Part shown: positions 50,400 to 51,560 of the stretch, one piece after another
Numbering within the stretch: the stretch's first letter is position 1
How the letters are laid out: every line of letters begins with the position of its first letter
Assembly (NCBI GenBank): GCA_009914755.4
Contig: CP068257.2
Location: 31,296,001 to 31,360,000, forward strand
DNA: 64,000 bases
Source: the human T2T-CHM13v2.0 reference genome, Homo sapiens
Reading direction: 5' to 3'
The notes under the pieces: generated by a model
What the model was told of the DNA's origin: nothing
Databases searched by the model: none
The model's input: only the letters and a program-made list of their open reading frames with translations
Made by a program: the position numbers and the translations under genes

Positions 50400-51560
50400 G
50401 CCGGCCAGAAATGTATCCTGGTTTTCTAGGTGAACTTTCTCCCATCAATCTTTCCTTTAACCTCTCTGTTAGTGGAAGCAATAGGAACACCCCTCCCCTC
50501 CCCTGAGCAAATGCTTTCTTTTGACTGGAAACAAAACAGGGGCTCGGCGAAGGCTGAGGTGAAATCTGGGTGGCATGGGCGCCGCACAATGGGGCCGCTG
50601 TTCCCCGGCCCGGGCTTGTGTTTTACAACAGGGGAGGGGCGGGCGTGAATGGTCTGATGATTGGAACAATCCCCCCGATTCAGGCCTACAAACGCATCTT
50701 CTGTTCCACACCGAGGGGACAGAAAGGAGAAAAGTGACAAAGAACGCGGGGCGGGGGGAATTAAAACAAAATGCGCTCGACTAAAAAATCTCTCATATCC
50801 TGCATATTCCAGAAAGCGGCTCTATGGAGAGAGCCTTCAGGAGGCCTCAGCCATATCTGAATGGCTTTCTCTGGCCTCTGATTTATTGATGAAGCTGAAG
50901 CGACTTGCTGGAGAAAGGCCTGGAGCCTTCTTTGTCTCCGAGATGAAGTACAATAGGCCACAGGGCGGAGATCTCTTGTGATGCTCTCGGGTCCTGCCTT
51001 TCTCTTGCCCTCTCCTCCCTGCAAATACCAGCAGCGGTGACAAACGATTGGTGGTGTGCCTGGGAGAGCCGGTGACAAGACTGGGCCACTTGAGGTCTCC
51101 TTAAGAGGGTATTATGGCCAGGGCGACGTTTGTGCTGTGAAGATGGCACACTCCATTTTGTCAATGGCTCTCATCGGCCCAGATAATCGCCCCCTGCCTG
51201 CCTGTCAGGGGCGCAGCCGGCCGATTCATGGCGCCCTCGGAGAAAGTACCCTTTCCGTGGCGACCAAGATAGAGACATTGTGTTCACCTCCTTGAGCAGA
51301 GGGGAAGGTGACCACCAGGGCAGCCTGCCTTGTAAATTACCCTGAAAACAAAAACATACAGCGCCTCCTCGGCTTGGGACCCCCACCGATAAATTATGGC
51401 CAGGCTGTGGAGCAGAGCCCAGGAGAGACTGGTTGCTGGAGAGTTCCTCCCCCAAACCCCACGAGCGATCAAGAGGCCTCTGGGTCCGGAAAAGGGCTGC
51501 CGGGGTAGCTGGCATCCTGAGTAGATGGGAGCCTAGAGCATCCCAGAGGGTCTCCGCTGT
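50400..51560. promoter_or_regulatory. CpG-rich, TE-free block (~1.1 kb; a core ~250 bp at 50560-50800 meets CpG-island criteria by eye): candidate unmethylated CpG island, developmental enhancer or lncRNA promoter
   Basis: About 17 CpGs within 50560-50800 (obs/exp ~0.9 by hand count) and continued CpG retention to ~51560. Motif clusters: 'gagataattaacaaaa' (homeodomain TAATTA), 'ctgatgattggaacaatcccc' (SOX AACAAT), 'ctgatttattgatg' (PBX-HOX TGATTTAT), 'cccagataatcgcc' (GATA), 'cctgtcagg' (MEIS CTGTCA). No Alu for ~7 kb around it. Confidence 0.4.

What the first reader, a model, noticed from the sequence alone, without database searches (positions are those of the whole stretch)
50400..51560. 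CpG-island-like, transposon-free block with HOX/PBX/MEIS/GATA/SOX motif clusters, bracketed by a Z-DNA-prone (GT)n tract and an H-DNA-prone polypurine tract
Seen in sequence: within a 7-kb stretch that has no Alu (47815-54885), a ~1.1-kb segment keeps CpG at near-unmethylated frequency. I count ~17 CpGs in 50560-50800, obs/exp roughly 0.9. It carries tightly spaced motifs: TAATTA (50355), TGATGATTGG/AACAAT (50655), the bipartite PBX-HOX site TGATTTAT (50880), AGATAA (51185) and CTGTCA (51205). It has no ORF and no repeat similarity. Immediately upstream (49815-50038) is a 225-bp alternating purine-pyrimidine tract. Immediately downstream (51700-52058) is a 360-bp polypurine mirror-repeat tract. 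Established knowledge: orphan CpG islands and deeply conserved enhancers near developmental transcription-factor genes look like this (TE-depleted, CpG-retaining, homeodomain-site rich), and they are often Polycomb targets. Inference: this is an unannotated CpG island, enhancer or lncRNA promoter. The flanking non-B-DNA tracts may act as nucleosome-excluding or insulating boundaries.
Basis: partly seen in the sequence, partly recalled or inferred. Interest (0 to 1): 0.6.

Follow-up and report, generated by a model that had tools for sequence, protein, structure and literature searches.

The report
Deeply conserved enhancer-like element with CpG island
This stretch of primate (apparently human) non-coding DNA has a 300-base core that is about 96% identical in contigs I infer to be from birds, next to a small CpG island whose CpG richness is also kept across species, which is the known layout of developmental "poised" enhancers and is interesting but not a new kind of element.

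Summary

**CpG content.** It is elevated: 45 CpGs, o/e 0.51, against 0.22 in non-Alu background. Only 50545-50779 (235 bp, 17 CpG, o/e 0.89) qualifies as a minimal CpG island. 

**Motifs.** The HOX/PBX/MEIS/GATA/SOX sites exist but are no denser than in shuffled or neighbouring DNA. 

**Flanking tracts.** Both are real and are the two longest simple repeats in the window. 

**Conservation (the decisive result).** Translating the island core retrieved orthologous contigs from at least six other vertebrate lineages.
- Window 50181-51452 is collinearly conserved.
- The core at 50236-50535 is 96% identical over 200 bp in a distant clade that I infer to be birds. 
- The adjacent island keeps its CpG density in 6 of 8 species while individual CpG sites turn over. 

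**Exclusions.** I found no coding, RNA-structure or repeat signal. 

**Best reading.** This is a conserved enhancer module plus an orphan CpG island, the poised-enhancer architecture. The target gene, chromatin state and locus identity could not be determined. A boundary role for the non-B-DNA tracts remains speculation.

The parts
49334..49729 (.). Second conserved non-coding element, upstream of the (TG)n tract
   Evidence: blastn identity is 80.6% to L001/L002, 81.5% to L012 and 76.6% to L011. Identity per 50 bp is 0.68-0.88 against L001 and L012. CpG-poor.
49824..50037 (.). Imperfect (TG)n / (TGTGTGCATG)n microsatellite, alternating purine-pyrimidine (Z-DNA-prone). It sits in the non-conserved spacer between the two conserved elements.
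   Evidence: TRF. 90% alternating steps, with a perfect (GT)19 at 50000-50037. L007 ends in (CT)n(CA)n at this position and L011 has a CACGCATGCACAC remnant. L001 and L012 have none.
50181..51452 (.). Whole collinearly conserved module
   Evidence: blastn identity is 83-85% to L007-L010 (to 50036-51452) and 73-74% to L001, L011, L012 and L013 (50131/50241-51353/51367). In the longer distant-clade contigs the similarity to the window stops at the module edges, apart from the separate element at 49334-49729.
50236..50535 (.). Ultraconserved-like core, the putative transcription-factor-binding module. It contains TTGATAAAAGG, AGATAATTAAC, GACAATGAAACAA, CCATCAATCT and AAACAAAACA.
   Evidence: Mean identity is 0.86-0.96 per 50 bp across 7 contigs. 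The best 200-bp window, 50326-50524, is 96.0% (L001/L013), 95.5% (L012) and 98% (L007) identical. A 33-bp run at 50339-50371 is invariant in all contigs except L011. The core has 1 CpG in human. Single-base indels and frame switching among the predicted ORFs show the conservation is at DNA level.
50545..50779 (.). Minimal CpG island (orphan)
   Evidence: 235 bp, 17 CpG, o/e 0.89, GC 0.583. It is the only non-Alu segment of the 64 kb that passes a UCSC-type caller. The orthologous segments hold 12, 15, 8, 14, 3, 14 and 13 CpGs, yet only 4 of 15 human CpG sites are kept in L001. Its left 150 bp is 0.81-0.84 conserved, and conservation decays to about 0.5 by 50786.
51086..51185 (.). Second conservation peak (…GTTTGTGCTGTGAAGATGGCACACTCCATTTTGTCAATGGCTCTCATC…). 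The conserved CTGTCA (51202) and GATAAT (51182) sites lie at or just beyond its 3' edge.
   Evidence: Mean identity is 0.83-0.85 per 50 bp, including 0.78-0.86 in the distant clade.
51175..51262 (.). Second small CpG cluster
   Evidence: 88 bp, 9 CpG, o/e 0.89, GC 0.68. CpG-rich in L007, L008 and L011. L001/L013 have 4 CpGs and L012 has 0.
51697..52058 (+). Polypurine (GA/GGAA/GAAA-type) tract, H-DNA-prone, at the right edge of the conserved module
   Evidence: 96% purine, with runs of up to 97 nt and mirror repeats with arms of 10-13 nt. It includes four (GGAA)3-4 runs. L007 has a ~130-bp tract and L011 a CT-rich tract at the same position. L008, L001 and L012 have none.

Best explanation
Window ~50181-51452 is a distal cis-regulatory module under strong purifying selection. 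It has two juxtaposed parts.

1. A CpG-poor, ~300-bp ultraconserved-like core (50236-50535) packed with homeodomain/GATA/SOX/PBX/forkhead-type sites. It most likely serves as the transcription-factor-binding platform of a developmental enhancer.
2. An adjacent small orphan CpG island (50545-50779). Its CpG density is maintained over evolution while its individual CpG sites are not, as expected if it is kept unmethylated in the germline.

By analogy with dissected poised enhancers, the island would recruit CpG-binding and Polycomb machinery, keep the neighbouring sites unmethylated, and help the enhancer contact a CpG-rich developmental promoter over long range.

**Shown:** conservation, the non-coding nature of the sequence, the CpG-island property and its evolutionary maintenance.
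**Inferred:** enhancer activity, hypomethylation, Polycomb marking and the existence of a distant target gene.

A second conserved element (49334-49729) and a third peak (51086-51185) probably belong to the same regulatory cluster. The two flanking microsatellites lie in the non-conserved spacers and are most simply mutational by-products.
For: - An exhaustive HMMER search with the translated island core retrieved 8 predicted ORFs, 7 of them specific (P0001-P0007) and all from Logan assemblies of other organisms. The eighth (P0008, E = 2e-4) was not examined.
- Their contigs align collinearly to the window, at 83-85% over 1.3-1.4 kb (0.96 kb for the short contig L009) in four contigs and 73-74% over 1.1-1.25 kb in a more distant set. 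The contigs form at least six lineages besides human.
- The conservation profile peaks at 50236-50535 (0.86-0.96). The distant clade is 0.92-0.98 identical over 50336-50535, against about 0.5 or unalignable at 50736-50885 and beyond 51386. That is roughly a ten-fold rate difference within 1 kb.
- The best 200-bp window is 96.0% / 95.5% identical to the distant clade.
- L013 ends in ORF fragments that match my recollection of the avian/reptilian CR1 ORF2 C-terminus, including …GHKLEHRKFHLNM, and the L001 end shows a weaker resemblance. This points to sauropsids. The ORF recurs in 253 sequencing runs.
- The sequence is non-coding. There is no protein homology other than these orthologous spurious ORFs. 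The reading frame differs between species and there are single-base indels.
- The island passes UCSC-type criteria. CpG density is kept in 6 of 8 species while only 4 of 15 human CpG sites persist in L001. The TpG/CpA decay signature is reduced in the block.
- AGATAATTAAC, ACAATG, GAAACAAT, ATCAATCT, CTGTCA and GATAAT are conserved from mammals to the distant clade.
- The architecture matches published poised enhancers, which consist of a TFBS module plus an orphan CGI. There the CGI recruits PcG, protects the TFBS from methylation and boosts long-range activation of CpG-rich promoters (bioRxiv 10.1101/2020.08.05.237768).
Against: - There are no chromatin, methylation, accessibility or reporter data, so enhancer activity is inferred from conservation and layout only.
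- Motif counts are not enriched over shuffles or background.
- The island is tiny (235 bp) compared with the 893-bp oCGI dissected at PE Sox1(+35). It has been lost in L012 and weakened in L009.
- The window is fairly Alu-rich (28 Alus in 64 kb), which from my own knowledge is less typical of the gene deserts around developmental genes.
- No target gene or locus identity could be established.
- The species behind the contigs are unknown. The bird assignment rests on my memory of the CR1 protein, and neither Pfam nor the literature search gave independent confirmation.
- About 42% of human orphan CGIs show transcription initiation (PMC2944787), so a promoter role is not excluded.
Confidence: 0.6

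Rival explanations
1. Orphan-CpG-island promoter. The island is the TATA-less promoter of an unannotated transcript, either a lncRNA or an alternative 5' exon of a distant gene. The ultraconserved core would be its first exon on the minus strand, ending at the donor AGG|GTGAGT (GT at 50222).
For: - In human, the minus strand has CCAAT (50664) and a GC box (50643), followed about 350-450 nt downstream by a strong 5' splice site. No poly(A) signal occurs before 49686.
- The plus strand has ATTAAA at 50760 and no GTRAGT for 1.5 kb.
- The GC skew changes sign at 50503.
- Conservation drops close to the putative donor.
- 42% of human orphan CGIs show initiation (PMC2944787).
Against: - The CCAAT match is human-specific; all seven other contigs have ATGG.
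- The first GC box is GGGGAGAG in the distant clade, and the second is not alignable there.
- The donor hexamer is intact only in human and L007, altered to weaker GT-retaining variants in L008 and L001, and destroyed in L011 and L012.
- The GC-skew asymmetry is not significant (P about 0.1).
- There is no TATA box or poly(A) structure and no Rfam lncRNA family hit.
- The contigs are unspliced and break at repeats, as genomic DNA does.
- From my own knowledge, about 95% identity between human and birds is unusual for lncRNA exons.
Confidence: 0.2
2. An architectural or Polycomb-tethering element without classical enhancer activity. The conserved core and CpG island would act as a PcG/CTCF-type anchor or silencer that organises the topology of a developmental locus. 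The non-B-DNA tracts might contribute as boundaries.
For: - The island is conserved next to a highly conserved core.
- Orphan CGIs are sufficient to recruit PcG.
- The literature search lists work on distal Polycomb tethering elements (PMC13376775, abstract).
- The two longest simple repeats of the window flank the module, and tracts occupy the same positions in L007 and L011.
Against: - No CTCF core motif occurs in 50040-51690.
- The microsatellites are absent from the distant clade and the polypurine tract is absent from L008, so they are not part of the conserved unit.
- The core is rich in tissue-type TF sites rather than in architectural motifs.
Confidence: 0.12
3. The conservation reflects a gene product, either a protein-coding exon or a structured non-coding RNA.
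For: Stop-to-stop ORFs of 104-141 aa cross the block, and gene callers predicted ORFs on the orthologous DNA in other species.
Against: - The predicted ORFs use different frames in different species, and single-base indels lie in the core.
- There are no Pfam hits on any called gene.
- There is no homology to any real protein.
- Rfam has no hit at gathering or E <= 1 apart from microsatellite artefacts.
- In RNAalifold the covariation term is unfavourable (+2.37), and only 2 of 75 pairs are compensatory. Power is low because substitutions are few.
Confidence: 0.03
4. No function. The CpG excess would be a by-product of a young insertion, GC-biased gene conversion at a recombination hotspot, or chance.
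For: - Other CpG-retaining patches in the window look like repeats: an LTR-like sequence at 12.6-13.0 kb and an interspersed repeat at 9.2-9.5 kb.
- From my own knowledge, microsatellites such as (GT)n are associated with recombination.
Against: - The sequence is present and collinear in at least six other lineages, so it is not young.
- It has no similarity to anything else in the window, no LTR or poly(A) hallmarks and no target-site duplication.
- It contains no PRDM9 13-mer.
- The CpG excess has Poisson P about 1e-6, and a GC-matched neighbour has o/e 0.09.
- Identity within the module ranges from 96% to unalignable over 1 kb, which is incompatible with neutrality.
Confidence: 0.02

Closest known systems
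Poised enhancers built from a TF-binding module plus an orphan CpG island (for example PE Sox1(+35), PE Wnt8b(+21), PE Six3(-133); bioRxiv 10.1101/2020.08.05.237768, read)
   Same: A conserved, CpG-poor TF-site module lies directly next to a computationally defined orphan CGI. Both are distal to any detectable coding exon. CpG richness, not specific sequence, is what is maintained, which parallels the finding that an artificial CGI can substitute.
   Different: The island here is much smaller (235 bp, against 893 bp for Sox1(+35)). No H3K27me3, H3K4me1 or p300 data, target gene or functional test is available, so membership is by layout only.
Ultraconserved non-coding elements. From my own knowledge, UCNEbase defines these as >=95% identity over >=200 bp between human and chicken, and Bejerano-type UCEs are related.
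   Same: 50326-50524 is 96.0% / 95.5% identical to the distant-clade contigs over 200 bp. It is non-coding, is accompanied by further conserved elements within 2 kb, and is rich in homeodomain-type sites.
   Different: The distant clade is only inferred to be avian. The core is not 100% identical over 200 bp (the longest human-L001 exact run is 51 bp), so it is not a classical UCE. The surrounding window is fairly Alu-rich.
Orphan CpG islands acting as unannotated promoters (Illingworth et al. 2010, PMC2944787)
   Same: It is a CGI remote from any annotated-looking coding exon, with slightly reduced CpG density. Such islands are often developmentally regulated.
   Different: The promoter-type motifs are not conserved here, and no transcript evidence could be obtained. 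The strongest constraint lies beside the island, not in it.
Non-B-DNA microsatellites as regulatory or boundary elements ((TG)n Z-DNA, polypurine H-DNA, GGAA microsatellites; from my own knowledge)
   Same: The sequence requirements are met: a 214-bp alternating Pu/Py tract and a 360-bp tract that is 96% purine, with mirror repeats and (GGAA)3-4 runs.
   Different: Nothing here shows structure formation or function. The tracts lie in the least conserved spacers and are missing from several orthologues.

Membership tests
CpG island (Gardiner-Garden & Frommer / UCSC criteria) | Length > 200 bp | tested here: met
   50545-50779 is 235 bp in a cpg_lh-style emulation.
CpG island (Gardiner-Garden & Frommer / UCSC criteria) | GC >= 50% and CpG obs/exp > 0.6 | tested here: met
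   GC 0.583 and o/e 0.89. The full 1.16-kb block has o/e 0.51 and fails.
CpG island (Takai-Jones stringent criteria) | >= 500 bp, GC >= 55%, o/e >= 0.65 | tested here: not met
   No 500-bp window in the block passes. The only passing windows in the 64 kb are at about 5.0 kb, over a young Alu.
CpG island (biological definition) | Unmethylated in germline or early embryo (CAP-seq/BioCAP, WGBS) | not testable with these tools
   Indirect support only. The TpG+CpA excess is reduced, and CpG density is maintained with site turnover across species.
Ultraconserved non-coding element (UCNE: >=95% over >=200 bp, human-chicken) | >= 95% identity over >= 200 bp to the distant species | tested here: met
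   50326-50524 is 96.0% identical to L001/L013 and 95.5% to L012.
Ultraconserved non-coding element (UCNE: >=95% over >=200 bp, human-chicken) | The compared species is chicken or another bird | tested here: inconclusive
   CR1 ORF2-like fragments lie at the L013 contig end, with a weaker resemblance at the L001 end, and the ORF recurs in 253 runs. The CR1 identification is from memory. Pfam and the paper search gave no confirmation, and the run accessions were not found in papers.
Ultraconserved non-coding element (UCNE: >=95% over >=200 bp, human-chicken) | Non-coding | tested here: met
   There is no protein homology beyond orthologous spurious ORFs, and frames are not conserved.
Poised enhancer with orphan CGI | Conserved TF-binding module adjacent to an orphan CGI | tested here: met
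   The core at 50236-50535 abuts the CGI at 50545-50779.
Poised enhancer with orphan CGI | Distal to promoters of annotated genes | tested here: inconclusive
   No ORF of >=60-66 aa between 19.3 and 56.4 kb has any protein homologue. Short exons and non-coding genes cannot be excluded, and the locus is not mapped.
Poised enhancer with orphan CGI | H3K4me1 + H3K27me3/PcG + p300 in pluripotent cells, with activation on differentiation | not testable with these tools
   No epigenomic data are available.
CpG-island promoter | Conserved core-promoter elements and a transcription start site | tested here: not met
   The CCAAT match is human-specific, the GC boxes are not conserved beyond some mammals, and the donor is not conserved. 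A TSS itself is not testable.
Homeodomain/PBX/MEIS/GATA/SOX motif cluster | Motif density above dinucleotide-shuffled and genomic background | tested here: not met
   4 hits against 4.4 in shuffles and 9.1 in background for the block. 11 against 7.1 (P = 0.10) and 12.9 for 50040-51690. These are consensus-string scans, not JASPAR matrices.
Z-DNA / H-DNA forming tracts | Sequence prerequisites (long alternating Pu/Py; long mirror-symmetric homopurine) | tested here: met
   90% alternating steps, with the longest run 56 nt. 96% purine, with runs of up to 97 nt and mirror arms of 10-13 nt.
Z-DNA / H-DNA forming tracts | Actual non-B structure formation or boundary function | not testable with these tools
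   Positional conservation is only partial: present in L007 and L011, absent in L008, L001 and L012.

The most novel reading that the evidence does not exclude
The conserved enhancer core, its orphan CpG island and the two flanking non-B-DNA-prone microsatellites form one functional cassette. In this reading, a Z-DNA-prone tract and an H-DNA-prone tract have been kept at the same positions since early mammalian radiation. They would act as nucleosome-excluding or torsion-absorbing boundaries that insulate a Polycomb-marked poised enhancer from the neighbouring Alu-rich, methylated chromatin.
Probability: 0.06. Interest if true: 0.65.

Novelty: new member of a known kind. Interest (0 to 1): 0.4.

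Why it matters
If the reading is right, this is a strongly constrained vertebrate regulatory element. Elements of this kind usually control a developmental transcription factor, and their deletion or mutation can cause congenital disease.

The pairing of an ultraconserved TF-binding core with a CpG island whose density is conserved, but whose individual sites are not, is a clean natural example of the modular logic proposed for poised enhancers. The lineages that have lost the island (L012) or eroded the core (L011) are natural experiments on that logic.

It does not open a new category. Elements of this kind number in the thousands, and this one is very likely already visible in public conservation and CpG-island tracks.

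Tried and rejected
**Routes that led nowhere**
- Rfam, over the whole window at gathering thresholds and over the block at E <= 1. The only hits were sub-threshold miRNA/snoRNA matches inside the (TG)n tract, which are repeat artefacts. There are no tRNAs.
- The word-indexed protein search found nothing for concatenated six-frame ORFs of the block, for ORFs within about 7 kb either side, or for ORFs at 19-40 kb. So the locus could not be named through a neighbouring exon.
- Exact look-ups of two block ORFs found nothing on record.
- Two metagenome scans, one with peptide patterns and one with an exact 22-mer, found no copy, not even a human one.
- Full-text searches for block 17-20-mers, for SRA run accessions and for CR1 peptide strings found nothing.
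- Pfam on the CR1-like ORFs had no family. Mammalian SINE consensus sequences written from memory had no hit in any contig, as expected because assemblies break at repeats.

**Hypotheses considered and rejected**
- Minus-strand promoter plus exon model. It looked coherent in human but was rejected as the main explanation because its elements are not conserved.
- Retrocopy with a degenerated poly(A) tail. There is no poly(A) signal upstream of the purine tract and no target-site duplication.
- LTR or other young repeat. There are no hallmarks and no self-similarity.
- Recombination hotspot. There is no PRDM9 motif.
- Structured RNA. There is no covariation.
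Full report
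**What the window is.** The 64-kb window is primate, apparently human, DNA. It has GC 0.44, an overall CpG obs/exp of 0.235, and at least 28 Alu copies that I mapped with a consensus written from memory. No Rfam family reaches its gathering score anywhere in the window.

**Checking the observation: the parts that hold.**
- No Alu lies between 47815 and 54860.
- An imperfect (TG)n array spans 49824-50037. It is 90% alternating purine/pyrimidine and includes a perfect (GT)19.
- A tract that is 96% purine spans 51697-52058, with uninterrupted purine runs of up to 97 nt and short mirror repeats.
- These two tracts are the longest simple-sequence arrays in the window, and 8 of its 13 arrays fall between 48.6 and 58.5 kb.
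- The CpG enrichment is real. The stated block 50400-51560 has 45 CpGs (o/e 0.51, GC 0.55), against a median o/e of 0.22 for non-Alu windows of the same size. It holds the most CpGs of any such window. At the background o/e, 19.6 CpGs would be expected (Poisson P about 7e-7).
- The CpG-decay products TpG+CpA are at 1.08 in the block and 1.24-1.42 in both flanks.
- An equally GC-rich segment next door (48900-49300) has o/e 0.09. The effect is therefore not simply base composition.

**Checking the observation: the parts that do not hold.**
- The enrichment is concentrated. My emulation of the UCSC caller returns only two islands in 64 kb. One is a young AluY. An 88-bp cluster lies at 51175-51262. 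Nothing in the block meets the Takai-Jones criteria.
- The named motifs are all present within a few bases of the stated positions, but they are not enriched. In the block there are 4 developmental-TF consensus hits, against 4.4 +/- 2.1 in dinucleotide-preserving shuffles and 9.1 in other non-Alu windows. In the wider interval 50040-51690 there are 11, against 7.1 (P = 0.10) and 12.9. Only GGGCGG, and two TAATTA sites outside the stated block, stand out.
- The stretch is Alu-free but not transposon-free. It contains a MIR at 52686-52849. Sequence at about 54.15-54.8 kb looks L1-derived to me, from memory and untested, and an L1 ORF2 fragment lies just outside the stretch at about 57 kb.

**Finding related sequences.**
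- No vertebrate genome database was available, and most routes failed. These were the word-indexed protein searches, exact ORF look-ups, two metagenome scans and a text search for the sequence.
- The exhaustive HMMER search with the ORF spanning the island core (window:50429-50821, minus strand) returned eight predicted proteins. The best had E = 4e-50 and 69% identity over the whole query.
- The seven specific hits all come from Logan assemblies of public sequencing runs; the weakest, P0008 (E = 2e-4), was not examined. They read the region in different frames, which is how spurious ORFs on conserved non-coding DNA behave.
- Their contigs (L001-L014) align collinearly to the window.
 - L007, L008 and L010 align at 83-84% over 1.3-1.4 kb, and the short contig L009 at 85% over 0.96 kb.
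 - L011, L012, L001/L002 and L013/L014 align at 73-74% over 1.1-1.25 kb.
 - L001, L012 and L011 also align at 77-81% over a second element at 49334-49729.
- By pairwise identity there are at least six lineages besides human.
 - Human, L007, L008/L010 and L009 are about equidistant from one another (83-87%).
 - L011 is more divergent.
 - L012 groups with L001 and L013, which are 96% identical to each other.
- L013 ends in ORF fragments that match my recollection of the CR1 ORF2 C-terminus of birds and reptiles, including …YLKGG…FSVVP.DRT.G.GHKLEHRKFHLNM. The L001 end shows a weaker resemblance.
- The L001-type ORF occurs in 253 runs. I therefore think this clade is avian and that L001 is probably chicken.
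- That assignment rests on memory. Pfam and the paper searches did not confirm it.

**Anatomy from the eight-way alignment.**
- Conservation peaks at 50236-50535, with 0.86-0.96 mean identity per 50 bp. The distant clade is 0.92-0.98 identical over 50336-50535.
- The best 200-bp window (50326-50524) is 96.0% identical to L001/L013, 95.5% to L012 and 98% to L007. A 33-bp run (50339-50371, GGAGAGAGTGAGAGATAATTAACAAAAAACATGG) is invariant in every contig except L011.
- This core is CpG-poor, with one CpG in human.
- Conservation continues at 0.81-0.84 through the left half of the CpG island. It falls to about 0.5 at 50736-50885, rises again to 0.83-0.85 at 51086-51185, and is gone beyond about 51390 in the distant clade.
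- In the longer distant-clade contigs, nothing outside the module and the 49334-49729 element aligns to the window.
- A ten-fold difference in divergence within 1 kb shows purifying selection, whatever the species are.

**The CpG island over evolution.** The segment orthologous to 50545-50779 contains 17 CpGs in human. It contains 12, 15, 8, 14, 3, 14 and 13 in L007, L008, L009, L011, L012, L001 and L013, with o/e 0.67-0.89 in six of the eight. Only 4 of 15 aligned human CpG sites are CpG in L001, and 10 of 16 in L007. CpG density is therefore maintained while the sites turn over. This is what a region protected from germline methylation should show, and not what selection on individual sites would produce.

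**Site-level conservation.**
- Conserved from mammals to the distant clade: AGATAATTAAC, GACAATG, CCATCAATCT, GAAACAAT, CTGTCA and GATAAT (51182).
- Conserved only among the mammal-like contigs: TGATTTAT.
- Not conserved: the elements of a promoter model that had looked attractive in human. That model had, on the minus strand, a CCAAT box at 50664, a GC box at 50643, a strong donor AGG|GTGAGT at 50222, and no poly(A) signal before it.
 - The CCAAT match is a human-specific change from ATGG.
 - The GC boxes are mammal-specific at best.
 - The donor hexamer is intact only in human and L007, altered in L008 and L001, and destroyed in L011 and L012.
 - The GC-skew switch at 50503 is not significant.

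**Other readings excluded or disfavoured.**
- Coding. Frames are not conserved, there are single-base indels, and there is no real protein homologue.
- Structured RNA. The RNAalifold covariation term is +2.37 and only 2 of 75 pairs are compensatory, though few substitutions limit the power of this test. Rfam is negative.
- Young repeat or retrocopy. There is no self-similarity, LTR or poly(A) hallmark or target-site duplication, and the sequence is old.
- Recombination hotspot. There is no PRDM9 motif.

**The flanking microsatellites.**
- They lie in the non-conserved spacers. The (TG)n tract sits between the 49334-49729 element and the core. That spacer is 83-138 bp in the distant clade and about 450 bp in human. 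The polypurine tract sits just beyond the right edge of the module.
- L007 carries a pyrimidine-rich tract of about 130 bp (purine-rich on the window's + strand) at the polypurine position and ends in (CT)n(CA)n at the (TG)n position. L011 shows remnants of both.
- L008 lacks the purine tract, and L001 and L012 lack both.
- The tracts are therefore old in some mammalian lineages but are not part of the deeply conserved unit. A boundary function is neither supported nor excluded.

**Best explanation.**
- The element is a distal cis-regulatory module. A CpG-poor TF-binding core under very strong constraint lies next to a small orphan CpG island whose CpG richness is itself maintained.
- This is the modular architecture described for poised enhancers. 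In those, the orphan island recruits Polycomb, protects the adjacent sites from methylation, and boosts long-range activation of CpG-rich developmental promoters. An artificial CGI can substitute for the natural one (bioRxiv 10.1101/2020.08.05.237768).
- About half of mammalian CGIs are orphans. 42% of the human ones show initiation (PMC2944787), so a promoter role remains the main rival.
- Shown here: conservation, non-coding status, and the island and its maintenance.
- Inferred: enhancer activity, hypomethylation, Polycomb marking and a distant target gene.
- Not determined: locus identity, species identity and chromatin state.

**Verdict.** The coordinates miss the most important 165 bp of the core (50236-50400). 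The element is a good example of a known class, not something new.

Noticed in passing
window 49334-49729: A second conserved non-coding element lies just upstream of the (TG)n tract.
   Followed up: partly
window 27550-27720 (tract 27838-27905): Another non-Alu CpG-dense patch (o/e 0.84 over 300 bp at GC 0.45) is followed by an A/G-rich tract, a layout similar to the finding. It has no Rfam hit and no protein homologue. Its conservation was not tested.
   Followed up: partly
L011:1-2114 (orthologue of window 49329-51761): In this lineage the core is only 84% identical to human, against 96% in the putative birds. It has GC 0.58 and 13 CpGs, and most changes are W->S (for example TAATTAAC -> TAATGAAG). 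This looks like GC-biased erosion of the element. The species is unknown.
   Followed up: partly
L012:2943-4086: This lineage keeps the core at 95.5% but has lost the CpG island (3 CpGs, GC 0.44, o/e 0.28). It is a natural 'island-deleted' variant.
   Followed up: partly
window 51865-52009: Four runs of (GGAA)3-4 lie inside the polypurine tract. From my own knowledge, this is the microsatellite type that EWS-FLI1 can use as a neo-enhancer.
   Followed up: no
window 53929-53996 and 55232-55344: Two polypyrimidine (CCCTC/TCTCC)n arrays lie downstream. Simple repeats are locally concentrated, with 8 of 13 arrays between 48.6 and 58.5 kb.
   Followed up: no
window 52686-52849; ~54150-54800; ~56900-57400: A MIR element is confirmed with a consensus written from memory. 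L1-like sequence, including an ORF2 C-terminal fragment (…YDPAIPLLGIYPK…DEWINK…), is identified by eye and from memory only. The Alu-free stretch therefore still contains older repeats.
   Followed up: partly
window 12600-13000 and 9200-9500: CpG-retaining patches that look like an LTR (with AATAAA) and a common interspersed repeat. They show that CpG retention alone does not indicate function in this window.
   Followed up: no
window 5261-5498: An AluY copy 98.7% identical to the consensus, so a very young insertion. It is the only other segment that passes the CpG-island caller.
   Followed up: no
window 49822-49959: Sub-threshold Rfam matches to mir-297, mir-3149, mir-1277 and mir-5014 fall inside the (TG)n tract and are simple-repeat artefacts.
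   Followed up: yes
L013:1-700 and L001:4400-5303: The L013 contig end carries CR1 ORF2 C-terminal-like ORF fragments, and the L001 end shows a weaker resemblance. The assemblies break there, which also explains why many runs give contigs with the same ends, without invoking a transcript.
   Followed up: partly
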